Virus record (IMG/VR): IMGVR_UViG_3300042516_001356
Length of the DNA: 64,000 bases
Direction: 5' to 3' (one strand)
From: an uncultured virus (IMG/VR IMGVR_UViG_3300042516_001356)
Lineage: Duplodnaviria; Heunggongvirae; Uroviricota; Caudoviricetes
A program made the position numbers and the translations under genes. Below the pieces are notes generated by a model, which ran no database searches, had not been told where the DNA came from, and saw only the letters and a program-made list of their open reading frames with translations. Numbering within the stretch: position 1 is the first letter of the stretch; every line of letters begins with the position of its first letter. This document shows positions 18,046-46,049 of this stretch, piece after piece.

Positions 18046-18047
18046 AT

Positions 18048-19562: not shown

Positions 19563-19924
19563 ATTACTAGTATACCCCACCTATCTTGTTTTGTAAAGTT
19601 TTTATTTATTTTTTAAAACTGGATCAAGCCTATCCCAATATCCACTATTATTACCTTGGTATATTTCTCCAGTTTCTTTATCTATAAGCATCCACTTTTC
19701 AGGACATCTTGTGTGAACTACTAAATCTATTGGCCTGGTAAGTTCCTTTATTTTTTTTTGTTTTCTCATTTATGTGTTTTCATATGATTATAAATAGTTT
19801 GATGTGCCATTGTTGACCTCACCTGTATTTCCTTACTACATGTTTCACAAATAACAAATTTATTGGCTGACATACAATTCAGTATATCAAATTTATAACG
19901 GTATGTCAATACGTAATATAAAAT

Positions 19925-20647
19925 TTAATCGTATTGTTTTTTTGTCCAAAATGTTTTTTTATACCATCCTTTAAAAACACTACTAGCAGAATCACTATGA
20001 CTCTTTCCAATTTCTACCAGACCTTTTGTTTTTTCTGAGTTCCAGTCTTCTTGGCGAAACGGTATTAGTTGTGCTATTGGCGTTCCTTGCTCAATGAGTC
20101 CTGTAAATCCCTCTTTAAGGTAAAATGGAACATTTCCATCTTCGCTTAATACCAATCCTCCATCAAGCACTGCACTTAAAGTTGTAAATGGAAGATCGTG
20201 TCTATTTAGTGGATGAGTAAATAAAATACTATATCCTTTTGGAACGCCATAGGAAACTCCTGGGTGCCAAACAAATTCTGTAGGATAATGACCAATTGGA
20301 ACAAGTTTTTCACTTGCTACATTATTTCTGACATTTGGTGTGCCTTTTGCACCTTTTGGCCATAAAATAAATGGAACCCCGTCTCTTATTTCAACATATA
20401 GATCAAAAGGAAGGGTCATTACGTAGCCAATAGTTAATGAATCTAAAAATGGTACACATAATTTAACTGTTGACCTAATATTAAAATCATCACTAAACAT
20501 TACATCATCATAATATTGTGGTATTTTTTTATACCAATCTGGTACAACTTTTTTTGTTGGAACTATTGAGTTTGGATAAGTTGGAACGGCAGACTCATAT
20601 CTTAAAATTGGTTTTTGTTTTTTATTAAAAATACTTTTTTTAAACAT
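19925..20647 (-). CDS. DUF6065-like / dUTPase-fold paralog 3
   Basis: PDWYK, TVKLCVPFLDSL..GY, PKGYS, HPLNRHDLPF, GTPIAQLIPF. Confidence 0.65.
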   Translation of the reverse strand: MFKKSIFNKKQKPILRYESAVPTYPNSIVPTKKVVPDWYKKIPQYYDDVMFSDDFNIRSTVKLCVPFLDSLTIGYVMTLPFDLYVEIRDGVPFILWPKGAKGTPNVRNNVASEKLVPIGHYPTEFVWHPGVSYGVPKGYSILFTHPLNRHDLPFTTLSAVLDGGLVLSEDGNVPFYLKEGFTGLIEQGTPIAQLIPFRQEDWNSEKTKGLVEIGKSHSDSASSVFKGWYKKTFWTKKQYD

Positions 20648-33920: not shown

Positions 33921-34094
33921 TTACTTACCAACCTTCCATGAAGTCCAGTATGACATGAAGTCATTATCCTCACGAAGGTGAGAAGTTATATTCTGCTCAC
34001 AATCCTCGCAGAAAGTAAATCGCTCATCATGAACGATAGAGATAGCATTTTTATTAGGTGTATGCTTACACACTTTTTCTTTTAGTGAATTCAT
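33921..34094 (-). CDS. Small Zn-binding protein (not in ORF track)
   Basis: MNSLKEKVCKHTPNKNAISIVHDERFTFCEDCEQNI; RBS GAAAGGA. Confidence 0.75.
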   Translation of the reverse strand: MNSLKEKVCKHTPNKNAISIVHDERFTFCEDCEQNITSHLREDNDFMSYWTSWKVGK

Positions 34095-34143
34095 TTTGAA
34101 TTCCTTTCTTTAGTGAGAGTTTCTCACTTTCTTTATACTGGTA

Positions 34144-34559
34144 AGTCTAACATAGACCACTGACATTTTCGCTATTACTGACCAGTATATGAGACAATTT
34201 TTATGTGATCCGCAACACATTAGCCTGTGGATAACTCAGCAGTATACTCACCAGTATAAAAGTGTCTGTGGATAACCCCTGTGGATAACTCTAAAAAACC
34301 CGAGTCCAATGTCCGATTTGTACTATTTGTCGTGTGGTGTATATCACTAATTACAGGCATGTAATTCACGGCGTGTCGTCTTGACTTTTCAGGTATTGTG
34401 TGATAGTATTCTACTATAAATAAATAAAGAAAGATAGTCTCAATGAGCCTACCAAATAAGGCGAACAAGTGTTCGCATGAGCGTAGCAAGTAAGTGAGGC
34501 AAATCACACAAAAAAAGACAGCGTGTCGCCTTGACTTTTCAAGGTTTATATGATAGTCT
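34144..34559. promoter_or_regulatory. Divergent control centre: leftward RecA-NDp promoter, two tandem rightward sigma-A promoters, three DnaA boxes, CRP-like and LexA boxes
   Basis: TGTCAG-N10-TAGACT (-, 34144-34165); TTGACT-N17-TAGTAT (34381-34409) and TTGACT-N17-TAGTCT (34531-34559), both with extended TG; TGTGGATAA at 34226, 34267, 34280; CGAAC-N4-GTTCG 34462-34475. Confidence 0.8.
34437..34500 (+). ncRNA. Structured leader RNA 1 (two UGAGC/CAARUAA internal loops)
   Basis: Nested stems GTCTCA/TGAGGC, CTAC/GTAG, GCGAAC/GTTCGC. Confidence 0.55.
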
Positions 34560-34584
34560 TACGACATACAATTAAATAAGAAAT

Positions 34585-34617
34585 CCTAGTGAGCCTCGCA
34601 AGAGCAAATAACCTAGG
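34585..34617 (+). ncRNA. Structured leader RNA 2 (one UGAGC/CAAAUAA loop, GNRA cap)
   Basis: CCTAG-TGAGC-CTC-GCAA-GAG-CAAATAA-C-CTAGG. Confidence 0.55.
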
Positions 34618-34666
34618 TCAGCAAAAGGTTAAAAGGTTTAACCGCATTAAAAGAAAGGTTCATTAA

Positions 34667-34825
34667 ATGAACACTATATATAACGAAATCGCTGATGAGT
34701 TTGGCTCATCTGCTCTATCTATCAATCATCCTCAACCTGAGATTAGCATTCGCCGTGCTGCTCAACTCATTGACGAAATGGGTTTTGATGTTGCTATGGA
34801 ATATGTTAAGGCAGGTGGTCGCTAA
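34667..34825 (+). CDS. Small early protein (not in ORF track)
   Basis: RBS GAAAGG; MNTIYNEIADEFG. Confidence 0.65.
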   Translation: MNTIYNEIADEFGSSALSINHPQPEISIRRAAQLIDEMGFDVAMEYVKAGGR

Positions 34826-34929
34826 TGACTATCGCTAACATGGATAAGATTAACGAAGCCATAGAGGCTTTACAAGAAGCAAACAAAGTGTTTGTGGAAA
34901 TGTTTGGAATTGACGAGGAGAATAACTAA
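34825..34929 (+). CDS. Small acidic peptide (not in ORF track)
   Basis: TAATG coupling; RBS AGGTGG. Confidence 0.5.
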   Translation: MTIANMDKINEAIEALQEANKVFVEMFGIDEENN

Positions 34930-35041
34930 TTATGGAAACAGAAGGAATTGGTAGCGTGATATTTTTTGTAGTATTTATGTCCACCATGCTATTTTTTATA
35001 GCAGCAGATAGACAAGGTTGGTTTAACTAGTGAAGGAACAA

Positions 35042-35227
35042 ATGATACCAGTTCAATTAACATCAGTAAATGGCGCAGTCAAAGACATGCCGTTTGATAG
35101 CAAAGAAAAAGTGTTAGAGTTTATTGACAAATACGCTGACGCATTACCATTGGGCACAGCCGTCAACATTGACGCACCGCTCATTGGTATTCACTCAGGT
35201 TGGATACAAGGACGCAAGAGTGTCTGA
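35042..35227 (+). CDS. Small protein (paralog of 31817-31999)
   Basis: RBS GAAGGA; NGAVK...F..KY..ALPLG. Confidence 0.7.
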   Translation: MIPVQLTSVNGAVKDMPFDSKEKVLEFIDKYADALPLGTAVNIDAPLIGIHSGWIQGRKSV

Positions 35228-35499
35228 GTATTCTGCTGAACAGTTAAGACGCAAAGCCCACCTAGAAAATGGTGGGACACTTGCTAACTATGATAGGACA
35301 CACTACACAGAGTCAGAGTAGTGTGCTCACTATTTTTTTTCATTTTTATTTTTAAAATTACATATCATACATCTAAGAAAAATATTCAGATTTTCTCAAA
35401 ATGAAAATTTTTTCAGATTTGGCAGGGTATAGGGTATAATTATTATATGAAACAACGAATACTAGTCTCTATCATAATAATTGGTTTGGCAGCATTGAT

Positions 35500-35652
35500 A
35501 TGGCTATTTTAGACAATCTTGAAGCATCTTTGCCAGATGACTATGGTATTCCAAAGAAAACAGTTAACGATGTAATTAAAGAAATGCTTGAAGATCCAGA
35601 ACACCATAAGTTAATGGAACGTCTAAAATACATGGAGGATCATGGAATCTAA
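35500..35652 (+). CDS. Small hypothetical protein (not in ORF track)
   Basis: MAILDNLEASLPDD..., 50 aa. Confidence 0.45.
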   Translation: MAILDNLEASLPDDYGIPKKTVNDVIKEMLEDPEHHKLMERLKYMEDHGI

Positions 35653-35865
35653 CATAGACAAACCAAAAGATATTCCTATTATAAACAAACCTTGTGATTG
35701 TAATTGTCAAACCACAGTAAATGACTTACTACAATCCCAAACCTCATTTGAGGAATAATGAATTATTTAGTTCACACAGATCCATATGATCATTCGGATA
35801 GAGGTTTGTTAATTTTTGCAATTTTGTCGGGGGTAGCAATAATATTTTGGTACTTTAAAAAGTAA

Positions 35866-36462
35866 CTACAATATCTCCAATTTTATCGGGGCACCAATAA
35901 GACTCTCACTAACACTGGTCCACAACTGTGAGGACATACTAGTATTAATTTTAGCAGACATACCTATAGACTCCATAACGTAGTTATATCCTCCAGACTT
36001 GGTTTGAACTTTGTTCCAAACCCCACTATCATATATCAAGGTTTGGGAATCAAATACAAAAAGATAATAAACCTTTTTCTCATTTTCGGCGGGGACAGAA
36101 GACCAATCCTGGTCTGACTTAGCAAGACACACATAATACTTAGCACTATTATCCACTACGCTAGATATCATGGCATCTAAGGTTTGATATTTACCTAGCC
36201 TGGATCCAGAGAAGGTTAGTGTGTTATTTGCGTATACACCCGATTTAACAGAGAAACTTTCGCCTGACTCTAAAGACATGTCTACGCTGACGGAATGGCT
36301 TCTATTAGGCTGCCAGTCGTTTATCAGGCCATGTTCTGTAAAGGTGTTAGCAATAAGTTCTTCCAAGAACTCACTTGTACAAGGAAGCCTATAAACTGAA
36401 TGATGTGTTTTTAGTTTGCTTGTCAAACCTTCAATAAGGATTTGCTTAATCATATCTAGCAC
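35866..36462 (-). CDS. PD-(D/E)xK restriction-endonuclease-like protein
   Basis: EFLEELIA helix, HSVSVDM, FSVKSG, SQLW; lone antisense gene with its own -10. Confidence 0.55.
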   Translation of the reverse strand: MLDMIKQILIEGLTSKLKTHHSVYRLPCTSEFLEELIANTFTEHGLINDWQPNRSHSVSVDMSLESGESFSVKSGVYANNTLTFSGSRLGKYQTLDAMISSVVDNSAKYYVCLAKSDQDWSSVPAENEKKVYYLFVFDSQTLIYDSGVWNKVQTKSGGYNYVMESIGMSAKINTSMSSQLWTSVSESLIGAPIKLEIL

Positions 36463-36500
36463 ATCTAAGTATAACCCATATCGGGATATTAAGCAAACAT

Positions 36501-36583
36501 AGATACTACATCCGATTAGACATTTGTGGACTGCGTAGCAGTCGTATTATGTCTTATGATGGTTTGATATCTCTATTTTCGGC
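36501..36583 (+). repeat. Rod-hairpin element copy C
   Basis: AGATA/TATCT, CATC/GATG, AGACAT/ATGTCT, GACTGC/GCAGTC; flanks match copies A and B. Confidence 0.55.
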
Positions 36584-36624
36584 TTAACTTATATCCCGCC
36601 TAAATAAATAGATATAATTGCTAT

Positions 36625-36903
36625 ATGGCAACAGCGCATTCATTAGTCACACTTAGCGATTCTTCTGCTACTCGCTTGACGCCATTAGGCGCACACGGCG
36701 GAATGGATATTACCCTACAAAATGTTAACGCAACTGGATATATTTATATTGGTGGCGAAGGAGTATCATCTTCTAACTACGGGTTTAGAATTATGCCAAA
36801 CCATTCAATCTCTTTTGAACTTGTATCCAATGATGCGCTATATGCAACTTCATCCGTAAACTCTATGAACGTTGCTATGATTCAAATCGGCTTGGAGCCT
36901 TAA
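36625..36903 (+). CDS. Hypothetical virion-associated protein
   Basis: ITLQN...IYIGGEGVSSSNYGFRI; leaderless promoter. Confidence 0.65.
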   Translation: MATAHSLVTLSDSSATRLTPLGAHGGMDITLQNVNATGYIYIGGEGVSSSNYGFRIMPNHSISFELVSNDALYATSSVNSMNVAMIQIGLEP

Positions 36904-37350
36904 GTGGCAAGATTTACGCATCCCGCTTTTGGAGATGTCGGCGGACTCACAACCGAAATAAAATCTTATTTTCCAGTATGGTCTGGAACTGGATTAGTCT
37001 TTACTGGAACTCCTGCAACAGGAACATATATAAAAATAGGAAATTTTATCCAAGTTCAAATTAGCGTTGACTTTGATAATGTAAGTAATTTCGGAACTGG
37101 ACAATATTTCTTAACACTTCCGTTTCCATCAAAATACCATACGGATGTTTATGGTGGCTCCGTTCATGATATTGTAAATCAAGGTGTGGATCACTATAGT
37201 CTTAAAGGACATTTAGATGATGGCAGTTCTACTTTTACAATTTGGAATATTAAATCTTCGGCAGCAGATGAACCATTTGACCACAACAGTCCAATTGGTT
37301 TAACAACAAATGATTTATTTCATATGTCTTTTTCATACATTTGTGAATAA
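36904..37350 (+). CDS. Tail-fibre-tip-like beta protein
   Basis: GTYIKIGN...GTGQYFLTLPF...FSY. Confidence 0.6.
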   Translation: MARFTHPAFGDVGGLTTEIKSYFPVWSGTGLVFTGTPATGTYIKIGNFIQVQISVDFDNVSNFGTGQYFLTLPFPSKYHTDVYGGSVHDIVNQGVDHYSLKGHLDDGSSTFTIWNIKSSAADEPFDHNSPIGLTTNDLFHMSFSYICE

Positions 37351-37379
37351 CAGTCTCAAATAATGATATAATAAACCTT

Positions 37380-37595
37380 ATGTCACCTCAAGATTGGGCA
37401 GCATTAACCTTAACTCTTCTTACCATTGTAACTATTGTTGCTGGTGGAATTCGTTGGCTTGTAAAGCATTATTTAAACGAACTTAAGCCAAATTCTGGAT
37501 CCAGTCTAAAAGACTCCGTTAATCGCCTAGAGGAAAAAACTGACAAACTATTTGATCTTTTACTTGAACACTTTAAAGATCATTCTAAAAAATAA
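37380..37595 (+). CDS. Single-TM membrane protein
   Basis: TM segment then ELKPNSGSSLKD..NRLE. Confidence 0.7.
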   Translation: MSPQDWAALTLTLLTIVTIVAGGIRWLVKHYLNELKPNSGSSLKDSVNRLEEKTDKLFDLLLEHFKDHSKK

Positions 37596-37811
37596 TTTTC
37601 TTTATATATAATATATAAGATACTTTAAAAACCTTACTTGCTAGTTATTCTTTTTCTTTATATATTTTAAGTATACACTTTTATACCCTGGTTTTTTACA
37701 CTTTATGCGGAAATGATTATAACGATTCTATAACAATTCTTTTAATGTCTGGTTTATAACGTTTTGTTATAATATGTCCGTTTTAGAATAATACAATGTT
37801 ATAATTTTTAT

Positions 37812-37868
37812 GCTGGCACCTAGATACTACCCCCCCACCCCACTGCGTCTAGGTGTCCAGTTTTATTT
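37812..37868 (+). ncRNA. Candidate small RNA hairpin with C-rich loop
   Basis: TGTTATAAT at 37797-37805; CTGG-CACCTAGA/TCTAGGTG-T-CCAG stem; T tract. Confidence 0.5.
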
Positions 37869-37887
37869 AATGGTATAATCAATTATT

Positions 37888-38289
37888 ATGTGTGCTCCTA
37901 CAATAGAAAAATATGGCGCTTCGCCAGCAAACATTCAATGGACCGTAGTCCGTGGAAACAATGCGACCCTAAAAGTAGAATTTTTTGAAGATGACGAAAC
38001 AACTGTTTACGACACAGATGGCTGGACATACCTATCTACAGCCTATGATCCTACAGGAGAAGTTCTTGATGAACTTACAGTAACAGAAGATGATGGGTAT
38101 GCAATTATTTCTATACCTGCAGATATTGCTACTAACTGGGGGACTCAGTATAGGTCCGTGGTTTCAGAATTACAATTTGACCTTCAGGTTACAATTCCTG
38201 GTGGTAGTGGAGAAGCAGACACAATTTGGACTCCAGTAATTGGAACAATTTGTGTGCTTGGAAATGTCACCCCTGGAGGAAGTTTATAA
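37888..38289 (+). CDS. BppU-like/Ig-like tail-baseplate protein
   Basis: IQWTVVRG...FDLQV...GTI; paralogous to 39135 and 44946. Confidence 0.6.
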   Translation: MCAPTIEKYGASPANIQWTVVRGNNATLKVEFFEDDETTVYDTDGWTYLSTAYDPTGEVLDELTVTEDDGYAIISIPADIATNWGTQYRSVVSELQFDLQVTIPGGSGEADTIWTPVIGTICVLGNVTPGGSL

Positions 38290-38390
38290 TGCCAGTTGTA
38301 AAGGTTTCTACTCCAAATACAAATATTCCACCAATTGTTAAAATTGGCAAAAAGGTCTTTAAGACAAAAATAAAGTAAGGTTTGGAAAAC

Positions 38391-39110
38391 ATGACAAAGA
38401 GCATGGATTTTCCAATCAAAAAGAAAAAATACACTGAGACTGTAGAACAAACAAAATCTATTGAGTATATTGCCGTTCCTGGAATCCAAGGGGAAAAAGG
38501 TGAAGTGGGGCCAATTGGTCCTCAAGGCCCTCAAGGTATAAAAGGTGATAGAGGCGAAAAGGGTGCACAAGGACTACAAGGACCAAAAGGAGAAAAAGGT
38601 GATACGGGTAAAGGTGCAGAAGGATACGATAGCCCCTCTGGTCAGTACCCTGGGTGGGCACACTATGTTGGAAAAAATACAAAGACTTATAAAGTCGGTC
38701 CAGAAAGAGGAGAAGATGGATGGGTTTCTTTTTTCTTAGATATAGATGAATCCCAAACCAATGAAGCATATCTTCCAAACAAATCAGTTTCTTTATTAAA
38801 TCAAATAGCAAAGACTATCAACCTAAAAACACTTAAAGTAGGGGCAAAGGTAGAGGTTAGGTATGATTTTTCTTTAGAAACATATTCAAACAATACAGAA
38901 GTTTGGATTAGAACCTTTTTACGAAACGAAGAATTATCACCTATAGGATATGTTGGGTTATTAAAATATCAATATCAATATGACCTGTCTTACTCTCAAA
39001 CCATTTTTATAAATAGCGACAAGATAAAAAATTATGGAGGCATCCCTCAAATCAGAACAGACAATGAAGGATCTTTTATATTAAAAGGCATATATATAGC
39101 AGTATCATAA
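38391..39110 (+). CDS. Collagen-like (Gly-X-Y) fibre protein
   Basis: About 16 GXY triplets followed by a globular domain. Confidence 0.85.
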   Translation: MTKSMDFPIKKKKYTETVEQTKSIEYIAVPGIQGEKGEVGPIGPQGPQGIKGDRGEKGAQGLQGPKGEKGDTGKGAEGYDSPSGQYPGWAHYVGKNTKTYKVGPERGEDGWVSFFLDIDESQTNEAYLPNKSVSLLNQIAKTINLKTLKVGAKVEVRYDFSLETYSNNTEVWIRTFLRNEELSPIGYVGLLKYQYQYDLSYSQTIFINSDKIKNYGGIPQIRTDNEGSFILKGIYIAVS

Positions 39111-39134
39111 TGGTATAATGTTATAGGAGGAATA

Positions 39135-39485
39135 ATGGCATTTCCAGGCACATATAATTTTAATTACTACCGTGGTGATAGGTACGAATTTGTAATCCGT
39201 CCTAAAAACGCAAACGGCGACGCATTTGACTTAACAGGATATAGTGCAGGCTTTTTCATTGCAAATCAAAGAGGTGAAAATAAAACTCAATATGAAATGC
39301 AAGCAGTTGTTGATGGCTCTACAGATGTAGTAACTTGCACAATTTTACCAGGTGCTGGAGAAGAACTTGCTGCTGGAACATATGTTTACGATGTTCAAAT
39401 AGATTCTGGAGCAACACTAATTTACACACTTTTGACTGGATCAATAACAGTAACAGATGATATTACTGGAGCAGATGATTCATAA
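39135..39485 (+). CDS. BppU-like tail protein
   Basis: YRGD...DLTGYS...GTYVYDVQI...LLTGSITV..DIT. Confidence 0.65.
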   Translation: MAFPGTYNFNYYRGDRYEFVIRPKNANGDAFDLTGYSAGFFIANQRGENKTQYEMQAVVDGSTDVVTCTILPGAGEELAAGTYVYDVQIDSGATLIYTLLTGSITVTDDITGADDS

Positions 39486-40060
39486 TGGTTGACGTACTAC
39501 TTAATACCGATGATGTTGTTGTTATAGGACCGCCAGAGTCAATTGATCTATTAGTTGACATTGGACCACAGGGAACTCGTGGTAGTAAGTTTATTGTTGG
39601 TTCTGGAGAACCTAATGCATTAACAGCAAGTGGTGTTTTATTTGGAAACACCTTAATTTTAAATGATATGTATATTAATACCGCCCCAGGAGAAAACTAT
39701 GGATATATGTATCAATATATTTCTCAGGCTGGTGCAAATACTTGGGTTCAAGTTTTAAAAGTAAGTCCAGCAATTTACTCCTCTGTAGAAACAATTGCCT
39801 TTACGTCTGGCGCAGGATCAATAACTATTCCAATATCAAACATAGTAACAGTTAGTGGTTCACCACTTACCGCTTCAAACTTCAATGTTCAGTTTCAAAT
39901 TGAAGGAGCAAATCCAATTGCTTCATCAATGGAGATACCTGCTTTAGCAGGGGCTGGAACAAACTTAGTAATAAACTTTGACGCAGTTCAATATAGCGGT
40001 GGTAGTTGGTCAGCGCTTACTGGAAATAAAACTGTACACCTTTTTATATCTATAGTTTAA
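39485..40060 (+). CDS. Minor tail/structural protein
   Basis: GPQGTRGSKF..G.G.P...DMYIN. Confidence 0.65.
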   Translation: MVDVLLNTDDVVVIGPPESIDLLVDIGPQGTRGSKFIVGSGEPNALTASGVLFGNTLILNDMYINTAPGENYGYMYQYISQAGANTWVQVLKVSPAIYSSVETIAFTSGAGSITIPISNIVTVSGSPLTASNFNVQFQIEGANPIASSMEIPALAGAGTNLVINFDAVQYSGGSWSALTGNKTVHLFISIV

Positions 40061-40095
40061 TATAAAAATGGTATAATCTTTAAAGAGGTGATCCG

Positions 40096-40575
40096 ATGGC
40101 TGTAGAAAATATAGGAAATTTAGTACCAACAAAAATTCCAGCATTAATTGATGATGCTAATATTCAAGATGCTTTAAAGGCATACCACTACGGCTCGTAT
40201 GATTTTGATACTGCAGAAACAGATCCAGCAGAACTTTTAAATCCATCAATTGCTTATACAATTAACAGTTTACAGAGTCAAATCACTACAAAGGCTGCGC
40301 TAGAGGTTTCAGCAAGAAACATATCTTCAGCACAAAACTCTGCACCCGTTGCAGCAAACTTCACAACATTTTCTGCAACAATACCAGATGGATATATTTG
40401 GGTGGACAAAGATGCAGCAGCCCCAGTAGGGTATATATCGGCAACATCTATTTATACTGCAACACAGCCATCAACTGGATTAGCCAATGGAGTTATTTGG
40501 ATTAAAAAAGGATCAAGCCCACTAGAGATGTATGTTTATAATGGGGACACTAGCACTTTTGATCAGGTGGTTTAA
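40096..40575 (+). CDS. Minor tail/structural protein
   Basis: GYIWVD and GVIWIK fibre-type motifs. Confidence 0.65.
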   Translation: MAVENIGNLVPTKIPALIDDANIQDALKAYHYGSYDFDTAETDPAELLNPSIAYTINSLQSQITTKAALEVSARNISSAQNSAPVAANFTTFSATIPDGYIWVDKDAAAPVGYISATSIYTATQPSTGLANGVIWIKKGSSPLEMYVYNGDTSTFDQVV

Positions 40576-40955
40576 TGCCAACATTATTTAATTACGACGG
40601 AAAACCAGGATATATTTATAATGTAGCAGACGATACCTGGTATGAGTTATCTGGTAAAACAGATACATCTGGAACTTATGAGTGGGCGGGGTTGCAAACC
40701 TATTTATCTAATGTAACAATGGTTGAGGCGTTAGTTGCAAAAAGGGGTATAAATAATTATCTTAATCCAGCAGCAAGAGATGCATCAATTACATCTCCAG
40801 TCGCTGGATCAATATGTGTAATAAGACAAGATTCATCTGGAAATATAATTAATACCCTTCAAATTTATGATGGATCTAACTGGTTACCAATTGCAAAACA
40901 ATCTATCGTTGAAGAGTTAGAAATTAAAACAATTATGGGAGTTTATACCTTATAA
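40575..40955 (+). CDS. Minor tail/structural protein
   Basis: AARDASITSP.AG...LQIYDGSNW. Confidence 0.65.
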   Translation: MPTLFNYDGKPGYIYNVADDTWYELSGKTDTSGTYEWAGLQTYLSNVTMVEALVAKRGINNYLNPAARDASITSPVAGSICVIRQDSSGNIINTLQIYDGSNWLPIAKQSIVEELEIKTIMGVYTL

Positions 40956-40998
40956 AAAGGTGCTATAATAATCTCATACCACAGAAAGGTAGTAACTA

Positions 40999-41301
40999 AT
41001 GGCTACAACTTCAAAGGTGCTTTTTAGAGGAGCAGCATCAACCTCAAGCGCAACCCTATACACAACCCCTTCGTCAACCACAACGGTAGTAACAAATATT
41101 TCTGTTGCTAATACTGCAGCATCTGCAGCAACATTCACTATTTTGTTAGATGATATTGAATTACAGAAAGACTCAACAGTCGCTGCCAATACAACAGCAT
41201 ACATTGACCTTAAGCAGGTCTTAGAGGCTACAGATACAATTAAAGGTTTAGCATCTGCTACAACAGTAGACTTTCACATTAGCGGAGTGGAGATAGCGTA
41301 A
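40999..41301 (+). CDS. Minor tail protein
   Basis: ATLYTTPS.TTTVV...HISGVEI. Confidence 0.7.
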   Translation: MATTSKVLFRGAASTSSATLYTTPSSTTTVVTNISVANTAASAATFTILLDDIELQKDSTVAANTTAYIDLKQVLEATDTIKGLASATTVDFHISGVEIA

Positions 41302-42212
41302 TGGGAATAAGTGTATTTCCCCCAGCATCAGCAGCGTCTGTATTAGAAACTAAAGCGGTATCGGTACCAGCAGCATCTGTTGGCTACAGACTATCTACAA
41401 GTTTTCCCGCATCTACCTACACAATCACCTGCCCAGCAACTGTTGTTGCTACAGTAACTTTTGAAGACTCTGCTGGCGCAATTGGAAGAACTTCTACATC
41501 AAGTGGTTCAGTTCAACTCAGTTTGTCTAGAGATGCAGATAAAGCACTTATCTATACTAATGCTGGAACTAGCGTAATTGTTACGATTACCCCTAGCGGT
41601 AGATCCCTTAGCCCAGTAGCAACTGGTGCGGCTACTGAATATAATACAACTACAACTCTTAGTACAACTGGTGCTGCATATAGCATAATTGTTGGTGGCG
41701 GAGGTGGCGGATCAGGTGCTGGATCATACCCAGGCGGTGCTGGTGGCGCTGGCGGTATTTCTGCTGGCTATACTCCAATATCATCAAACGCTTCTATAGT
41801 AATTGGCGGTGGCGCAGGTGGCGCAGGACCCAGCGCAGGATTTGGCGGAGGAAATGCTTCAGGTGGTGGCACATCAACAATTTCTGGTACTGGAATTACA
41901 ACATTAACTGCAAACGGCGGTGGTGGCGGACATTACTCACTACACAATGGCGCACAAGGTGGCGGAGGCGGAACTGGAAATGCCGTAAATGGTGGTTCTG
42001 GAGGACCCCATGGATATGGTACTGGTGGTGGCACCTCTTACAACTCGGGTGAATTTATTTTCGTAAAAAGTGGAACTATATCAACTGGCGGTGCTTGGGG
42101 TACTAATGCTGGTGCAGGTCTTAAAGGTGGTGGTGGCGCAGCAGGTGGTAATGGCCCTACTGGCAATGGTGGCGATGGTGGAGCAGGCGTTGCTTACGTC
42201 CTTGAGGTTTAG
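41301..42212 (+). CDS. Glycine-rich tail fibre/receptor-binding protein
   Basis: IVGGGGGGSG...GGAGG polyglycine domain. Confidence 0.75.
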   Translation: MGISVFPPASAASVLETKAVSVPAASVGYRLSTSFPASTYTITCPATVVATVTFEDSAGAIGRTSTSSGSVQLSLSRDADKALIYTNAGTSVIVTITPSGRSLSPVATGAATEYNTTTTLSTTGAAYSIIVGGGGGGSGAGSYPGGAGGAGGISAGYTPISSNASIVIGGGAGGAGPSAGFGGGNASGGGTSTISGTGITTLTANGGGGGHYSLHNGAQGGGGGTGNAVNGGSGGPHGYGTGGGTSYNSGEFIFVKSGTISTGGAWGTNAGAGLKGGGGAAGGNGPTGNGGDGGAGVAYVLEV

Positions 42213-42224
42213 AGAGGAACTATC

Positions 42225-42503
42225 ATGAGTAAATTTGCATTTATTGATGGGGATGAAGTAGTAAATATTATTATTGCTGATTCACTAGAAATTGCACAGT
42301 CGGTGACAGAGTTTGCCTGTGTTGAGTGTACAGATGAAGATAATGCTCAAGTAGGTGGCTCATATATTAACGGAAACTTTATACCAGTTAAACCTTTTCC
42401 AAGTTGGGTCTACTCAAATGGTAGTTGGAATGCACCAGTAGAGTGTCCAGATGCAACTATGGTTTGGGATGAAGAAAATCTTTCTTGGATTACAAATAAT
42501 TAA
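42225..42503 (+). CDS. Tail-fibre partner/assembly protein
   Basis: VVNIIIAD...KPFPSWV...W.APV...WDE...W, directly after the Gly-rich fibre. Confidence 0.65.
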   Translation: MSKFAFIDGDEVVNIIIADSLEIAQSVTEFACVECTDEDNAQVGGSYINGNFIPVKPFPSWVYSNGSWNAPVECPDATMVWDEENLSWITNN

Positions 42504-42567
42504 CTAGTTTTAAAGGCTTGCTTGTAATTGCTGTATAGTGGGTTTAATAATATAAACGGGGGGGCAG

Positions 42568-43254
42568 ATGAATATTACTTTTACCAACACTATTCCTTTT
42601 GAAATAGATCCCCCACAACCCGCATCTAAGTTTATACCTGAATGGTACACAAACACAGACTCATACATTGGTAAAAATAAAAAACCAGATGGTAACGGTG
42701 GTACAACGGGAACGATAAAACGTTGCATGCCAGTGTTTGATGCTATAACTGCAGGATATATAATCTCGTCACCCGCTGATGTCTACGTTAGCCTTGTAGA
42801 TGGTTATCATTACTTTGAATGGGCTTCTTTTAATTTAATTAGTCTGCATTCTCTAGAACAAGCCATTGAGCATCCAGCCCGAAATAGACAAGATGTACCT
42901 GTACCCAAGTGGGAGAATCCTTGGTCTATTAAAACACCTAAAGGATATTCAACCTTATTTGTTCAACCGTTTCATAGAGAATCGGTTTTTACCATTCTTC
43001 CAGGAATTGTGGATACCGACACTTACACGGCGCCAATTAATTTCCCTATGATTATGAATGATCCTGACTTTGAGGGGTTAATTCCAAAAGGAACACCTAT
43101 TGCACAGGTTATTCCCTTCAGGCGTGATACTTGGCATATGAGTTTAGGATCTGACAAAGAACTTAAAGAACAACATAGTATTAGGTCAAAACTAAACAGC
43201 AAATTTTTTGATAGATATAAAACTATGTTTTGGAATAAAAAGGAGTATAGGTAA
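42568..43254 (+). CDS. DUF6065-like / dUTPase-fold paralog 5
   Basis: PEWY, TIKRCMPVFDAITAGY, TPKGYS, LPGIVDTDTY, KGTPIAQVIPF. Confidence 0.65.
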   Translation: MNITFTNTIPFEIDPPQPASKFIPEWYTNTDSYIGKNKKPDGNGGTTGTIKRCMPVFDAITAGYIISSPADVYVSLVDGYHYFEWASFNLISLHSLEQAIEHPARNRQDVPVPKWENPWSIKTPKGYSTLFVQPFHRESVFTILPGIVDTDTYTAPINFPMIMNDPDFEGLIPKGTPIAQVIPFRRDTWHMSLGSDKELKEQHSIRSKLNSKFFDRYKTMFWNKKEYR

Positions 43255-43445
43255 TGTGTCCAAACTGCGGTGCAGACTTAGCGCCAATTATTTACGGTAA
43301 TTGGTCTCAAGAAATGATTCCCTTATTTAAACAAAATAAGGTAATCCTTGCATCTGATAAAAGCCAATACTTTTATGCGCCAGGTTCTCATTGCTTTAAC
43401 TGCGGACTGTCTTCTGATATAGTTGTACCTATCCCAAACTTATAA
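43254..43445 (+). CDS. Small Zn-ribbon protein
   Basis: CPNCG...PIIYG...HCFNCG. Confidence 0.65.
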   Translation: MCPNCGADLAPIIYGNWSQEMIPLFKQNKVILASDKSQYFYAPGSHCFNCGLSSDIVVPIPNL

Positions 43446-43457
43446 AATAGGAGAATC

Positions 43458-44147
43458 GTGATAACTAAAAAAGAATCTGTTGCGCTTGGTTGGTGCGACA
43501 ATGGCAACACAGATGGTAAATTTGTAGAAGGATTAGTTTCAATTTTTACCCATGGCAAAAGTCTTGGTCTTAACATAGATTCTTTTGTGCGTGTAGAAGG
43601 AAATCAAATAGGAAGACAGAGGCAAGCACTTTTTGATTGTTGGGCAAATGATTCACAAGATGATTGGTTGTTATGGATTGACTCTGACATTCATATAACT
43701 GCAGAAACATTAAAGAAAATTTGGGATACGGCAGACAAAGAAAAAAGACCAGTTGTAAGTGGAACATATTTTATTTCTAAACAATTAGATGGCTCTCTTA
43801 TGGTACCTTTTCCCGCACTATTTAATGACCTGTCTGAGTTTGCTATTGAGTATGTACATCCTCTTCCAGTTGATGAGGTTGTAAGGTGTGATTCTGCTGG
43901 AATGGGGTTAGTAATTATGCACCGATCTATTATTTCTAAATTAAGAGAAAAATATCCAAATCAGTCTTTATTTGCAGAACAAGAGGGGATTGAAGACGAG
44001 TATATTGGTGAAGATGTTGTTTTCTTTAGAAAATTAAAAGCAGCAGGAATTCCATTACATGCACACACAGGCGCTATTGCTACGCACGTAAAAAGGTTTC
44101 AATTAAACGTTGACTACTACAACCTATACTGGACTAGCAAGGTTTAA
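43458..44147 (+). CDS. GT2-like glycosyltransferase
   Basis: WLLWIDSD, AGMGLVIMHR, GEDVVF, H.K; RBS AGGAG. Confidence 0.85.
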   Translation: MITKKESVALGWCDNGNTDGKFVEGLVSIFTHGKSLGLNIDSFVRVEGNQIGRQRQALFDCWANDSQDDWLLWIDSDIHITAETLKKIWDTADKEKRPVVSGTYFISKQLDGSLMVPFPALFNDLSEFAIEYVHPLPVDEVVRCDSAGMGLVIMHRSIISKLREKYPNQSLFAEQEGIEDEYIGEDVVFFRKLKAAGIPLHAHTGAIATHVKRFQLNVDYYNLYWTSKV

Positions 44148-44197
44148 TTTTATACTTTATTTCTAGCCTTTTATGTTAGTAAAATAGTTAACATTTA

Positions 44198-44240
44198 AAA
44201 TAAAACCCCCCAAGCCAAAAGCAAGGGGGGTATTTTATTT
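44198..44240. terminator. Bidirectional terminator
   Basis: AAAATAAAACCCCCC...GGGGGGTATTTTATT between convergent genes. Confidence 0.7.
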
Positions 44241-44244
44241 GATA

Positions 44245-44799
44245 TTATTTTTTGTCTTTTTTGCATGGATATTTGTTGTACCATTCCTGATACCGTGATC
44301 CATTCAGGGTAGTCCAGGAAGACCAGTCTTTACCACCTTTAGTCATATGATGTGCTATCTGTGCGTTTTTAACTGGGTTAAACAGTTCAGAGTTTGAACC
44401 TAATTCAAACTTCTCCCTGCGATCTGGCCCCAAGTCCCCTATCATGTTTATTTGAAACATTCCATAAGAACTATCTCCAGTTTTAGGATTACCATTAAAA
44501 GCATGTGGTCTAGCGTTGGTTTCGGCCATAGCAATTGCACAAGCAGTTCTTAAAGCATTTCCTTCAAACCCCACATGCTTTAACAAATCAACTAATTCTT
44601 CATTGGTTAATTTATCAGCATTTTCATATTTTTCTAACTTTTTATCTTTAGAAACCAAAAAAGCCACCTCTTGGGTGGCAGACTTAATGGACTCTTTAAT
44701 TAATAAGTTATTTTCGTTTGATGCTTTTGCTGTACCCACAAAAACGGTACTACAAATAACTAACGATAATACCCCTAGCCAAGCATTAGATTCTCTCAT
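44245..44799 (-). CDS. Secreted lytic transglycosylase (SLT/lysozyme-like)
   Basis: Signal peptide; AIAMAET, DSSYGMFQIN, LFNPVKNA, DWSSW; RBS AGGAGG. Confidence 0.85.
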   Translation of the reverse strand: MRESNAWLGVLSLVICSTVFVGTAKASNENNLLIKESIKSATQEVAFLVSKDKKLEKYENADKLTNEELVDLLKHVGFEGNALRTACAIAMAETNARPHAFNGNPKTGDSSYGMFQINMIGDLGPDRREKFELGSNSELFNPVKNAQIAHHMTKGGKDWSSWTTLNGSRYQEWYNKYPCKKDKK

Positions 44800-44945
44800 T
44801 GTAAAATACCTCCTAGAGAACAAATGCTACCAAGTAGGTAGCATGTATTAATTATACCACTATTTGACCTTTTGAGTCAAATACCCGCATAAAATAAAAA
44901 AATATTTATAATATTGTTATTAGTTAATGGTATAATGATAAGATT

Positions 44946-45359
44946 ATGGCTACATTTAGAAATCAATCACAAAGTTCATATTCCGTTGGATCTACCCCGC
45001 CAACCGTACAATGGACAGTTGTAAAAGGTGATACCGCTGCATTTAGGGTATACGTAACAGATGACGACAAAGATCCACTAGTTATTTCTGAGTGGACAGT
45101 TGAAATGGAAATTAAAAGACCAACAGTAGCGGGTAATCTTAATGATGCAAATCCAACAAGTGTATTAACGTTATATCCAGTAGCCACAGTAGAAGATGGA
45201 GATGGAGAGTTTACAGTATCTTTAACTTCGGCAGAATCAAGAAGTCTTAATACAGGTGATATTTTTGATATTGAACTAAGTGATGCAACTAGGGTTTGGA
45301 CAGTTGCTCGTGGCACCCTAACAATCATTGAGGATATTACAAACGGTCAAGAGTCATAA
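44946..45359 (+). CDS. BppU-like tail protein
   Basis: VQWTVVKGD...FDIEL...GTLTIIEDIT. Confidence 0.65.
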   Translation: MATFRNQSQSSYSVGSTPPTVQWTVVKGDTAAFRVYVTDDDKDPLVISEWTVEMEIKRPTVAGNLNDANPTSVLTLYPVATVEDGDGEFTVSLTSAESRSLNTGDIFDIELSDATRVWTVARGTLTIIEDITNGQES

Positions 45360-45580
45360 TGGCCTATGCTGTAATTGTTGATACAGATAGTCAAAAATTA
45401 AAAAGAATAAATTCTGTTGGCTACCCACTATCTGAAATAATTTACAAAGCAAATTCAGTAAAAATTAATGAAATTTTACCCTTTAGAATTAAATTTACCA
45501 CAATAGGAATTGCTCCAGCAAATGCAAATATCCCTGGAATTGGTCTTCAAGTTATTGGTGTAAATAACTATATACTTTAA
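45359..45580 (+). CDS. Hypothetical protein
   Basis: TAATG-coupled ORF. Confidence 0.6.
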   Translation: MAYAVIVDTDSQKLKRINSVGYPLSEIIYKANSVKINEILPFRIKFTTIGIAPANANIPGIGLQVIGVNNYIL

Positions 45581-45602
45581 CATATAATGATATAATTACA
45601 CT

Positions 45603-46049
45603 ATGGCAAAGATATCAACAGCAAACGTTAAGGCCCTGTTTGAAACAGGAGATAGACCAACACAGGCAAACTACGAAGATTTAATTGACAGCACTTCTGC
45701 TAGGTCTACAGATCTTGGTTCAGATGGCAATAACGAGTCAACAATTAATGGAATTGAAAACTCAACAGTGTTTGATAACTTTTTAGCAAGCGAGTTTAGA
45801 TCAATGAAGTATATGATCTCACTTAAATATGTAGCAGGTGGAGGAAACAAATACTCTGCTACTGAATTATCTATATTAGTTGACGGAACAGATGTATCCG
45901 TTAGTCAATATGGAATAGTTGAAAATGATGGGAATATTGGCACCATCTCTGTTTCACGGGCTGGAGATACAGTTTCATTAACTGTTGTTCCAGTTGGGGG
46001 AATTACACCTATAACTCTACGCTATATGCGTATGGGATTAAAGGCCTAA
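45603..46049 (+). CDS. Structural protein
   Basis: LFETGDRPTQANYEDLIDS; C-domain resembles the C-terminus of 46065-47825. Confidence 0.7.
   Translation: MAKISTANVKALFETGDRPTQANYEDLIDSTSARSTDLGSDGNNESTINGIENSTVFDNFLASEFRSMKYMISLKYVAGGGNKYSATELSILVDGTDVSVSQYGIVENDGNIGTISVSRAGDTVSLTVVPVGGITPITLRYMRMGLKA

What the first reader, a model, noticed from the sequence alone, without database searches (positions are those of the whole stretch)
34381..34643. Tandem promoters each launch a leader RNA with the same UGAGC/CAAAUAA internal loop
Seen: two near-identical promoters 150 bp apart, each followed by an A-rich leader and a hairpin. Hairpin 2 is CCTAG-TGAGC-CTC-GCAA-GAG-CAAATAA-C-CTAGG (GNRA cap). 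Hairpin 1 has the loop twice, head-to-head around a CTAC/GTAG stem. Loop strands are conserved while all stems differ. The first unit has no ORF. Inference: a nascent-RNA antitermination element (analogous to HK022 put or lambda nut) or an RNA decoy for a host protein.
Basis: partly seen in the sequence, partly recalled or inferred. Interest (0 to 1): 0.74.

Follow-up and report, generated by a model that had tools for sequence, protein, structure and literature searches.

The report
Repeated-loop leader RNA of lake actinophages
Just after its two tandem early promoters, this uncultured lake phage makes a folded RNA built from copies of one small conserved internal loop; many related phages keep it, no RNA catalogue searched lists it, and its partner and job are unknown.

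Summary
Two near-identical sigma-70-type promoters lie 150 bp apart (-35 at 34381 and 34531). Each launches an A-rich leader carrying the internal loop (R)UGAGC / CAAAUAA(R). It occurs twice head-to-head in hairpin 1 (34437-34500) and once in hairpin 2 (34585-34617).

It is not chance. A loop finder gives 3 loops in the window, all on +, against a mean of 0.075 in 200 shuffles. Over 190 loci of uncultured ~100-kb lake phages carry the loop as 1, 2 or 3 nested copies with compensatory stem changes. In 129 of 130 unselected matches the two middle 4-mers are exact reverse complements. In a motif-only sample, 113 of 121 elements sit 20-90 nt behind a co-oriented promoter-like site, against 3 of 121 on the opposite strand. 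In five complete genomes the element occurs only in the divergent early control region.

No Rfam 15 family matches. No host copy was found in 151 genomes of the phylum, nor in three rRNA operons. The loop sequence fits a sarcin-ricin (S-turn) type module.

Function is not established. My best guess (about 0.4) is a nut/put-like signal on nascent immediate-early transcripts. Rivals are a 5'-UTR stabiliser, a decoy, or a shut-off tag.

This scan reported the same motif before on other genomes (at least five earlier notes).

The parts
34371..34409 (+). Promoter P1: conserved upstream GCGTGTCG, -35 TTGACT (34381-86), 17-bp spacer, TG (34401-02), -10 TAGTAT (34404-09). Predicted start is about 34416.
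   Evidence: The same promoter core is found in 69 viral-contig loci. The start site is inferred from spacing, not mapped.
34416..34436 (+). A-rich unstructured 5' leader of unit 1 (AUAAAUAAAUAAAGAAAGAUA).
   Evidence: Relatives keep AAUUAAAUAAG-type leaders behind both promoter types.
34437..34500 (+). Hairpin 1, a double element. Outer stem 34437-42/34495-500. Loop 1: A+UGAGC 34443-48 opposite CAAGUAA+G 34487-94. Middle stem CUAC 34449-52 / GUAG 34483-86. Inverted loop 2: CAAAUAA+G 34453-60 opposite A+UGAGC 34477-82. Apical stem-loop 34461-76.
   Evidence: Covariation in 35 distinct double elements and 65 inner hairpins.
34462..34475 (.). CGAAC-N4-GTTCG palindrome forming the apical stem of hairpin 1. 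It looks like a Gram-positive/actinobacterial LexA box (consensus recalled from memory).
   Evidence: Relatives put either this palindrome, a TGTGA-N6-TCACA palindrome, or unrelated stems at the apex.
34494..34507 (.). GTGA-N6-TCAC palindrome (CRP-like, consensus recalled) upstream of P2. Its left half doubles as the 3' arm of hairpin 1's outer stem.
   Evidence: A TGTGA-N6-TCACA-like palindrome precedes nearly every promoter copy printed.
34521..34559 (+). Promoter P2: GCGTGTCG, -35 TTGACT (34531-36), TG (34551-52), -10 TAGTCT (34554-59). Predicted start is about 34566.
   Evidence: One RNA-library contig of a relative ends at 34566. This is a weak hint only, because contigs cannot show ends.
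34585..34617 (+). Hairpin 2, a single element: CCUAG / UGAGC / CUC-GCAA-GAG / CAAAUAA+C / CUAGG.
   Evidence: Covariation in 19 distinct single elements.
34627..34643 (+). Second leader hairpin GGUUAAA-AGG-UUUAACC between the element and the ribosome-binding site.
   Evidence: Relatives have different arms at the same place (GUUAGC..GCUAAC, GAUAAC..GUUAUC, AUAGAC..GUCUAU). Read by eye, not counted.
34650..35227 (+). Ribosome-binding site (AAAGAAAGGU, 34650-59) and the four small immediate-early ORFs: 34667-34825, 34825-34929, 34932-35030, 35030-35227. Sizes 52, 34, 32 and 65 aa; pI 4.1-5.6.
   Evidence: No Pfam family for any of them.
35292..35340 (+). Intrinsic terminator closing the early operon: hairpin 35292-35332 (15.2 kcal/mol, z -2.88) followed by U8 at 35333-35340.
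   Evidence: It is the strongest of 4 sites my scan lists on + in 34000-46000; the other three lie at 38729, 40041 and 41021 at about -8 to -9 kcal/mol. A like site lies 630-1300 nt behind the promoter in 32 of 58 relatives.

Best explanation
SHOWN. The region encodes a conserved, modular, structured RNA in the 5' leaders of the immediate-early transcripts of a family of ~100-kb lake phages with actinophage hallmarks (whiB). The building block is one asymmetric internal loop, 5'-(R)UGAGC-3' opposite 5'-CAAAUAA(R)-3', held between two helices of free sequence. It is used once, twice (head-to-head, two-fold symmetric) or three times in one hairpin. It appears about 15-40 nt after the predicted start of transcription, behind two different promoter types, whatever gene follows.

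INFERRED.
(1) The loop folds as a sarcin-ricin/loop-E type S-turn. The proposed contacts are: sheared A.G; U.A trans Watson-Crick/Hoogsteen with a bulged A or G; A.G; then C.A or C-G plus one extra C. A covarying A.G / G.A pair sits next to it.
(2) Such an invariant, non-Watson-Crick surface on variable stems is a docking site for one conserved reader.
(3) Most likely mechanism: the element acts in cis on the nascent transcript. As soon as it leaves RNA polymerase it binds the elongation complex, either directly (put-like) or through a phage or host protein (nut-like, probably a dimer on the symmetric pairs). Early transcription then resists pausing and Rho-dependent or intrinsic termination in the long untranslated leader, and at the terminator that closes the 0.6-1.3 kb early operon.

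I put about 0.9 on 'real structured leader RNA read by a specific factor' and about 0.4 on the elongation/antitermination mechanism.
For: Structure:
- Double elements: 35 distinct, 89.6% of cells paired against 69.3% in shuffles and 26-44% with slid partners. 11 of 17 pairs change on both sides.
- Single elements: 19 distinct, 98.7% paired, 6 of 8 pairs compensatory.
- Inner hairpins: 65 distinct. The apical helix was not selected for pairing, yet 92.1% is paired and all 4 pairs are compensatory.
- In a scan that fixed only the loop strands, 129 of 130 matches have exactly complementary middle 4-mers: CTAG/CTAG, CTAC/GTAG, CTAT/ATAG, CTCG/CGAG.
- Loop strands are invariant: UGAGC in 70 of 70 cells. 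The A-rich strand is CAAAUAA, CGAAUAA or CAAGUAA. The flanking purine pair is A.G 45, G.A 20, A.A 5, and never G.G or Watson-Crick.

Strand and place:
- 113 of 121 unique elements have a promoter-like site whose -10 ends 20-90 nt upstream (nearly all 22-53) on the same strand. The complementary strand gives 3 of 121.
- All 3 window loops are on +.
- Core-stem G.U 9 against A.C 1.
- RNA-library contigs of relatives cover both hairpins and the first gene.

Early-region restriction: in five genomes that CheckV rates 100% complete, all 16 short-spaced loop matches lie in one control region of 1.5 kb or less, in divergent orientation, with 0 control hits. The structured hits of a looser pattern lie in the same region.

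Terminator: a hairpin plus U8 lies about 775 nt behind P2. A like site is seen in 32 of 58 relatives on the promoter strand, against 6 of 58 on the other strand.

No host copy. This fits a reader that is a phage protein or the polymerase itself.

S-turn fit: published variation of the motif includes a bulged A, a G.A trans Hoogsteen/Hoogsteen pair, an A.C lower sheared pair, an extra bulged C and 6x5 forms (PMC8450098, passages seen).

Features of put used for comparison come from the Introduction of PMC9378689.
Against: - No functional datum exists. Metatranscriptome data here are contigs, without strand or ends.
- Terminators also follow promoters that lack the element, e.g. L040, L064 and L070.
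- Promoter-like sites lie just behind the window's terminator, so downstream genes need no read-through.
- In some relatives only the upstream promoter of a tandem pair has an element, e.g. L004 and L029.
- The four early proteins are acidic, not N-like.
- Two-fold symmetric pairs suggest a dimeric protein rather than the polymerase.
- The shape is a single composite hairpin of repeated loops. It is unlike put (two stem-loops, about 70 nt) and unlike nut (conserved apical loop).
- Hairpin 2 alone is marginally stable at -5.4 kcal/mol.
- A bulged A is reported to cost about 5.5 kcal/mol relative to G in a model S/R duplex.
- CGAAUAA variants put G opposite C, where the S/R motif has a sheared pair.
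Confidence: 0.4

Rival explanations
1. 5'-UTR expression module. The element, with or without a bound host protein or 30S subunit, blocks 5'-to-3' or 5'-end-dependent decay (RNase J/E). It raises the yield of the tiny immediate-early proteins, like known 5' stabilisers of Gram-positive and phage mRNAs (recalled: STAB-SD, SP82 early RNA).
For: It is always in a 5' leader. It is part of a conserved multi-hairpin UTR made of an A-rich 5' segment, the element, a linker, a second hairpin, and a ribosome-binding site with the AUG inside a further hairpin. The operon is short and terminated. Tandem strong promoters suggest a need for a burst of expression.
Against: A plain stabiliser needs no invariant internal loop. 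The hairpin is not at the 5' end: by the -10-to-loop distances, about 15-40 nt of unpaired RNA precede the first loop. Unit 1 lies about 220 nt and one promoter away from the first start codon. Double elements are often followed by another promoter (43 of 121).
Confidence: 0.22
2. Decoy or sponge. The abundant first transcripts display 1-3 copies of a binding site and titrate a host RNA-binding protein, probably a dimer.
For: Multiplicity and two-fold symmetry of sites. Unit 1 has no conserved ORF. Tandem strong promoters.
Against: Unit 1 has no convincing terminator before P2, so it is a leader and not a separate small RNA. No host copy of the site was seen. In 46 genome-contig loci only 5 are true elements; two of those (the 85-kb contig and L222) show phage context here and three are 1-2 kb MAG contigs of unchecked origin. 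Only 2 of 151 genomes of the phylum hit the model, one being that phage contig. None was seen in three rRNA operons.
Confidence: 0.12
3. Tag for phage-encoded post-transcriptional control. A middle-phase phage protein, either a repressor or an endoribonuclease, recognises the loop and shuts off or processes all immediate-early messages together.
For: One invariant tag sits on transcripts from different promoters and with different genes. There is no host copy, which fits a phage-encoded reader. Symmetric sites suit a dimer.
Against: No candidate protein was found. The window's proteins with Pfam hits include a staphylococcal-nuclease homologue (6557-6964) but no known RNA-binding fold. Nothing ties any gene to the motif.
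Confidence: 0.12
4. DNA-level element. The inverted repeats act as single-stranded DNA hairpins or a cruciform. They might scaffold the LexA-like or CRP-like palindromes at their apex, or expose short single-stranded loops next to PafBC-type promoters.
For: Apical stems are often transcription-factor-like palindromes. 32 of 121 double elements are followed within 150 nt by a TGTC[AG]G-N9-11-TAnnnT site. PafBC is activated by ssDNA of 6 nt or more (PMC11804915, passages). The minus strand folds as well as the plus strand.
Against: Orientation is tied to the promoter, 113 against 3 of 121. Single elements and many doubles have no such palindrome. Loops of 5+8 unpaired bases with stems of 3-6 bp make extrusion from duplex DNA very unfavourable (inference). 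A 12-nt ssRNA did not activate PafBC in vitro, which also weighs against an RNA-ligand version of this idea.
Confidence: 0.04
5. Leader peptide. RUGAGC supplies an AUG or GUG start and CAAAUAA a UAA stop for a mini-ORF.
For: The base before UGAGC is A or G in 149 of 180 entries. In 86 of the 158 entries with A, G or U there, the frame ends at the last UAA. In the window a 25-codon frame from GUG 34589 ends at the UAA that abuts the AUG of the first gene.
Against: Element length is spread over all three residues mod 3 (98/56/26). C precedes UGAGC in 22 entries. 77 different peptides result. Those 180 entries include repeats of one element with different downstream DNA. In 33 distinct single-element leaders the frame stops after 2-27 codons at scattered places, and only the window's twin record abuts the gene start. 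The starts are buried in helices and have no ribosome-binding site.
Confidence: 0.02

Closest known systems
HK022 putL/putR RNAs (Introduction of PMC9378689 read)
   Same: Cis-acting folded RNA made just behind the divergent early promoters of a phage. Conserved unpaired residues sit on helices. No dedicated protein gene lies next to it. Terminators lie downstream in the early operons.
   Different: put is about 70 nt with two adjacent stem-loops. It binds the beta' zinc-binding domain of E. coli polymerase. Here the element is a single hairpin of 33-95 nt made of 1-3 nested copies of one loop, often two-fold symmetric, in phages with actinophage hallmarks. No sequence likeness was tested, because I had no put sequence from a tool. 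No activity is known.
Lambda-type nut sites (boxA + boxB bound by N); features recalled, partly
   Same: A linear conserved leader segment (AAUUAAAUAAG) is followed by a hairpin in the leaders of both early operons. A purine-rich non-canonical surface could take an arginine-rich peptide.
   Different: The recognition feature is an internal loop, not the apical loop. Apical loops vary freely. The first four proteins of the operon are acidic. Copy number is 1-3.
Sarcin-ricin / loop E (S-turn) internal-loop motif (PMC8450098, passages)
   Same: A(A/G)UA opposite GAG matches the core of upper sheared A.G, U.A with a bulged purine, and a Hoogsteen pair. The variants seen here (bulged A, G.A, A.C, extra C, one more non-canonical pair) are each reported in solved structures. 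Two copies in two-fold arrangement recall bacterial 5S loop E (recalled).
   Different: Loop size is 6x4 plus a purine pair rather than 5x4. The bulged base is mostly A. In CGAAUAA variants G faces C. The fold is not tested. Such motifs are modules of rRNA and riboswitches, not a functional class.
Repeated-site regulatory RNAs such as CsrB/RsmZ (recalled)
   Same: Several copies of one short protein-binding motif are displayed on stems.
   Different: Those are free-standing small RNAs with their own terminators, and the host has many mRNA targets with the same motif. Here the sites are in an mRNA leader and no host copy was found.
Promoter-early stem-loop (PeSL) cassettes of T4-type phages
   Same: A conserved promoter plus stem-loop module is repeated in front of small early genes, and may spread by recombination.
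   Different: PeSLs are described as DNA-level shuffling cassettes. Here the conserved part is an RNA internal loop with covarying stems, and it occurs behind two unrelated promoter types.

Membership tests
HK022 put RNA | Lies downstream of the early promoters of both divergent early operons | tested here: met
   113 of 121 elements lie behind a co-oriented promoter-like site. They are confined to the divergent control region in five complete genomes. In this window only the rightward side carries it.
HK022 put RNA | About 70 nt, two adjacent stem-loops | tested here: not met
   Single composite hairpins with nested loops of 33 and 64 nt in the window. The same shape is seen in relatives.
HK022 put RNA | Acts alone on RNA polymerase (beta' zinc-binding domain) and suppresses intrinsic and Rho-dependent terminators | not testable with these tools
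   Only context is available: a terminator lies 0.6-1.3 kb downstream.
Lambda nut (boxA/boxB + N) | Conserved apical loop of boxB recognised by N | tested here: not met
   Apical loops vary (GCAA, AAGU, UAA, CCAAUAA, GAAA, ACAA and others) while the internal loop is invariant.
Lambda nut (boxA/boxB + N) | Small basic arginine-rich antiterminator encoded in the early operon | tested here: not met
   The four ORFs before the terminator have pI 4.1-5.6. The basic 25-codon leader frame is unique to this phage.
Sarcin-ricin / loop E 3D motif | Sheared A.G, U.A trans Watson-Crick/Hoogsteen with a bulged G, trans Hoogsteen/Hoogsteen pair, lower sheared pair, in a 5x4 (or 6x5) loop | tested here: inconclusive
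   The sequence signature fits: the A, U, G and A positions are invariant in 35 and 65 distinct sequences. However, the bulged base is A in most copies and G only in the window's third copy. The loop is 6x4 plus a purine pair. 13 of 35 outer loops have G opposite C. The comparison is with published variation.
Any Rfam 15 family | Covariance-model match | tested here: not met
   At gathering threshold the window gives only 4 tRNAs. At E up to 10 on 34300-34700 there is one chance-level hit, STnc320 at 17.8 bits against a cut-off of 50. At E up to 1 on 14 relatives' loci there are two chance-level hits.
Sponge small RNA (CsrB type) | Free-standing RNA with its own terminator; the same motif in host targets | tested here: not met
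   No convincing terminator lies between hairpin 1 and P2. No host copies were seen in those searched.

The most novel reading that the evidence does not exclude
The repeated S-turn module is a self-sufficient nascent-RNA device. It docks on the host RNA polymerase elongation complex without any protein and makes immediate-early transcription termination- and Rho-resistant. That would be an independently evolved 'put' of a completely different architecture. To my knowledge (recalled, not searched) it would be the first such element in actinophages and outside lambdoid phages. Its modular, copy-number-variable design would tune strength.
Probability: 0.2. Interest if true: 0.85.

Novelty: new variant of a known kind. 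Interest (0 to 1): 0.68.

Why it matters
If the fold and its restriction to immediate-early leaders hold, this is a widespread RNA family absent from every catalogue searched. It is kept by more than 190 loci of abundant uncultured lake phages. It has an unusual building principle: one small non-Watson-Crick loop used as a stackable, invertible module.

It marks the very first transcripts of infection in a host group, apparently freshwater Actinobacteria, for which almost nothing is known about phage takeover. That group lacks Hfq and CsrA (recalled).

Finding its reader would reveal one of two things. It could be a new way to reprogram an actinobacterial transcription complex, or a new RNA-protein recognition pair. 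Either would also give a compact, tunable RNA part for synthetic control.

Tried and rejected
Sequence and family searches:
- BLASTN of 34100-34900 against 50,697 phage records gave no match.
- Rfam gave nothing.
- Full-text searches for CAAAUAA+UGAGC returned 19 papers. The 10 listed were all unrelated by title, and none was read. The 16-mer of the double element returned 0 papers. I therefore found no description in that library. Subscription journals are not covered.

Host copies:
- The genome-contig scan gave 46 loci. 41 of them are unrelated direct tandem repeats of TGAGCGAAGCGAATAA type with non-complementary 4-mers.
- Model R1 in 151 genomes of the phylum hit only the phage-like contig itself, plus one weak hit at 26.8 bits that lacks UGAGC.
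- The taxonomy of these genomes is not shown by the tool, so I could not aim at the likely host order.

rRNA-site mimicry: three 16S-23S-5S stretches hold no internal loop with these strands.

Coding: the mini-ORF and leader-peptide idea was rejected.

PafBC ligand: the idea that the RNA activates the WYL-domain regulator PafBC was considered because PafBC-like promoters adjoin many elements. It was weakened by the published finding that a 12-nt ssRNA does not activate PafBC.

Sequencing runs:
- Four RNA libraries hold only small shares.
- Laid as contigs, they cover the hairpins and gene 1 of relatives. They cannot show strand, ends or level.
- Uncovered parts (34182-34304 and 34961-35165) are no evidence.
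- Some contigs also cover promoter DNA. The cause may be read-through from an upstream tandem promoter or DNA carry-over.

Methods that added little:
- Single-sequence folding energy does not support the structure or the strand.
- My first mismatch count was confounded by helix ends and is discarded. The later counts give few wobble pairs: 9 G.U against 1 A.C and 1 G.U in 275 apical pairs.
- Shared-gene analysis with the 85-kb contig G007:C1 showed it is simply a related phage (portal 68.6%, RNR 79.5% identity). It could not narrow down a partner protein.

Full report
WHAT IS THERE

The finding lies in a 570-bp divergent intergenic region (34095-34666). To its left is a leftward block of small genes. 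To its right is a rightward block whose first gene starts at 34667.

The window belongs to a large phage with about 35% G+C. It carries four tRNA genes, a portal, a protease and other structural genes, and a ribonucleotide reductase. It also has a WhiB-like gene at 10054-10335. The ISME J paper on Nanopelagicales phages calls whiB a key indicator of actinophages (PMC10202952, first part of the text read).

The best portal matches among deposited phages are about 46% identical and belong to Streptomyces phages. DNA runs holding the stretch are labelled lake-water metagenomes. A 42-kb IMG/VR record is 100% identical over the 801 bases compared, 34100-34900.

CHECK OF THE OBSERVATION

- The 21-mer GCGTGTCGNCTTGACTTTTCA occurs twice, 150 bp apart, and nowhere else. 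None is expected by chance.
- Both copies have TTGACT, a 17-bp spacer, a TG and a TAnnnT -10.
- A script that demands both loop strands plus helices on both sides finds three loops, all on the + strand and only here. Shuffles give a mean of 0.075.
- Folding energy alone is unimpressive and does not tell the strands apart. The real test is comparative.

RELATIVES

A scan of IMG/VR for the promoter core found 69 loci, one of which is the window's twin. Behind most copies comes an AAUUAAAUAAG-type leader. It is followed by a hairpin holding UGAGC and CAAAUAA as opposite strands of an internal loop. The stems differ from locus to locus.

By the order of loop strands, the elements fall into three classes:
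- singles (22 listed, of which 4 are chance co-occurrences without stems);
- head-to-head doubles (34 distinct);
- triples (14 distinct).

A second scan fixed only the loop strands of a double. In 129 of 130 matches the two unconstrained 4-mers are exact reverse complements. Chance would give about 1 in 256.

Formal pair counts agree:
- A1: 35 doubles including the window, 89.6% paired, 11 of 17 pairs with changes on both sides, slid controls 26-44%.
- A2: 19 singles including the window, 98.7% paired.
- A3: 65 inner hairpins. Helix 1 is complementary by my selection. Helix 2 was not selected and is 92.1% paired, with all four pairs compensatory.

The loop strands are invariant or nearly so. 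A purine pair next to the loop covaries as A.G or G.A.

STRAND AND PLACE

In the motif-only sample, 113 of 121 unique elements have a promoter-like site whose -10 ends 20-90 nt upstream on the same strand. Nearly all lie 22-53 nt upstream. The site is either the TTGAC type or a TGTC[AG]G-N9-11-TAnnnT type. The complementary strand gives 3 of 121. The element therefore follows two unrelated promoter types and is always co-oriented with them.

In five phage genomes that CheckV rates 100% complete (three with terminal repeats), all 16 short-spaced loop matches lie in one region of 1.5 kb or less per genome. They sit in divergent orientation, and the control pattern gives no hit. A looser pattern adds structured hits only in that same region.

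RNA-library contigs of relatives cover both hairpins and the first gene. These are contigs and prove neither strand nor ends.

Wobble pairs favour the promoter strand, but they are few.

WHAT THE LOOP MAY BE

I read the two strands against the published description of the sarcin-ricin motif (PMC8450098, passages). The proposed correspondence is:
- the A before the last A of CAAAUAA with the first G of UGAGC as the sheared pair;
- U with the A of UGAGC as the trans Watson-Crick/Hoogsteen pair;
- the preceding A as the bulged base. In the window's third copy, CAAGUAA, this is the canonical G;
- A with the second G as the Hoogsteen pair;
- A or G opposite the final C as the lower pair.

One C is left over, and a purine-purine pair sits on the other side. 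Each deviation is reported somewhere in solved structures. However, a bulged A is much less stable than G, and G opposite C is said not to form the sheared pair. The assignment is an inference from sequence, not a test.

SEARCH FOR A KNOWN FAMILY, A HOST COPY OR A PARTNER

- No Rfam 15 family matches the window or 14 relatives' loci.
- I found no paper with these strands in a relevant context.
- In one genome per species of 185,579 prokaryote species, the double pattern hit 46 loci. 41 are unrelated tandem repeats. Five are true elements, all on MAG contigs: three of 1-2 kb, one of 9.7 kb and one of 85 kb. I checked the origin of the 85-kb one only.
- The 85-kb contig is filed in a Bifidobacterium MAG. 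It is a phage related to this one and carries three double elements in its early region.
- A covariance model of the inner hairpin (R1) found nothing credible in 151 genomes of that phylum apart from that contig.
- Three rRNA operons hold no such loop.
- None of 93 window proteins has a known RNA-binding fold.
- The four proteins of the early operon are small and acidic.

CONTEXT THAT BEARS ON MECHANISM

The rightward early operon is short, with four ORFs spanning 34667-35227. It ends in a clear intrinsic terminator: hairpin 35292-35332 followed by U8.

A comparable site lies 630-1300 nt behind the promoter in 32 of 58 distinct relatives. Only 6 of 58 show any on the opposite strand. It is also present behind promoters that lack the element.

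Promoter-like sites follow the window's terminator. In 43 of 121 cases a double element is itself followed by another promoter, as in the window (P1, hairpin 1, P2).

Apical stems of doubles are often LexA-like or CRP-like palindromes (consensus sequences recalled from memory). This suggests the RNA module was built around palindromic operators that fold anyway.

INTERPRETATION

Firmly supported: this is a real, strand-specific, promoter-proximal structured RNA family. It is built from a stackable internal-loop module. It is confined to the immediate-early leaders of one group of lake phages with actinophage hallmarks and is absent from Rfam.

An invariant non-Watson-Crick surface on free stems calls for one conserved reader. 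No host copy was found, so I favour a reader that is either the transcription complex itself or a phage protein.

My preferred mechanism is a nut/put-like action on the nascent early transcript, protecting it against Rho-dependent or intrinsic termination. I give this about 0.4. The rivals cannot be excluded with these data: a 5'-UTR stabiliser, a decoy, a shut-off or processing tag, a DNA-level hairpin, and a mini-ORF. The last two are unlikely.

COMPARISON WITH WHAT IS KNOWN

The position matches putL/putR and nutL/nutR. The architecture does not. put is two stem-loops of about 70 nt acting on the beta' zinc-binding domain (Introduction of PMC9378689). nut relies on a conserved apical loop and a basic protein. 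I therefore do not file it under either family.

EARLIER NOTES OF THIS SCAN

The same motif was reported before on other genomes: e1-5967272, e1-5996435, e1-5995485, e1-6025254 and e1-6041421. The verdict there was the same: a real family, not in Rfam, reader unknown. For one of them a later check says that part of it fell. I cannot see which part.

Note e1-6010113 gave the lead that the promoters carry host-regulator sites of Actinobacteria. I saw the matching strings but tested no binding.

- the sarcin-ricin reading of the loop;
- the covarying purine pair;
- the promoter-type independence with a strand control;
- the restriction to one locus in complete genomes;
- the conserved terminator;
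- the negative host, rRNA and mini-ORF tests.

Noticed in passing
window 34226-34234, 34267-34275, 34280-34288 (+): Three copies of TGTGGATAA, the complement of the DnaA-box consensus (recalled), lie in the divergent early region about 100-150 bp upstream of P1.
   Followed up: no
window 34165-34144 (minus strand), leader hairpin 34112-34128: The leftward operon seems driven by TGTCAGTG-N8-TAGACT, which matches the PafBC/RecA-NDp promoter form as I recall it. It is followed by a simple hairpin and a ribosome-binding site, without the loop motif. The same promoter form precedes the motif in 56 of 121 relatives' elements (45 alone, 11 together with the TTGAC type).
   Followed up: partly
window 34370-34380 and 34520-34530; loci L072-L194: GGCGTGTCGNC abuts the -35 hexamer. 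In relatives the same 10-mer also occurs inverted (CGACACGCCG) about 10 bp further upstream. That pattern suggests a protein site read as duplex DNA.
   Followed up: no
window 34403-34418 (P1) and the same place in L003-L071: An inverted repeat spans the -10 hexamer and the predicted start site, and its arms seem to change together between promoters: ATAGTA-TTC-TACTAT, ATAGGA-TAC-TCCTAT, CTTAC-GGA-GTAAG. It would not be in the RNA if the start is where I predict. Read by eye only.
   Followed up: no
window 35226-35345 (+): A conserved stretch of about 75 nt holds a hairpin (GCCCACC..GGUGGGA) just before the terminator. It is present in the contigs of all four RNA libraries laid. It may be a stable 3' end of the early transcript.
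   Followed up: partly
window 34589-34666 (+): A 25-codon, very basic frame (GUG..UAA) runs from the loop of hairpin 2 to the stop that abuts the AUG of the first gene. Among 33 distinct leaders it is found only in this phage's twin record.
   Followed up: yes
window 34656-34680 and relatives: The start codon of the first early gene sits in the loop of a small hairpin whose 5' arm begins at the end of the ribosome-binding site. The first codons (MNT.., MTT..) may be constrained by it.
   Followed up: no
window 12866-18749 (minus) and 18001-20000: A block of glycosyltransferase, methyltransferase and nucleotide-sugar epimerase genes lies next to a G+C dip to 27.6%. It may be a DNA- or surface-glycosylation island.
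   Followed up: no
L196, L200, L201, L211, L214, L219, L234, L240 and others (genome contigs): Tandem direct repeats of TGAGCGAAGCGAATAA-type units occur in many Bacteroidales and other MAGs. They are unrelated to the finding and unexplained.
   Followed up: no
G007:C1 (L244-L248), 85,019 nt: A contig filed in a MAG titled Bifidobacterium is a phage genome related to the window (portal 68.6%, RNR 79.5% identity, 41.9% G+C). It carries three double elements at about 2945, 3918 and 6748. It is probably mis-binned, so it is no host evidence.
   Followed up: partly
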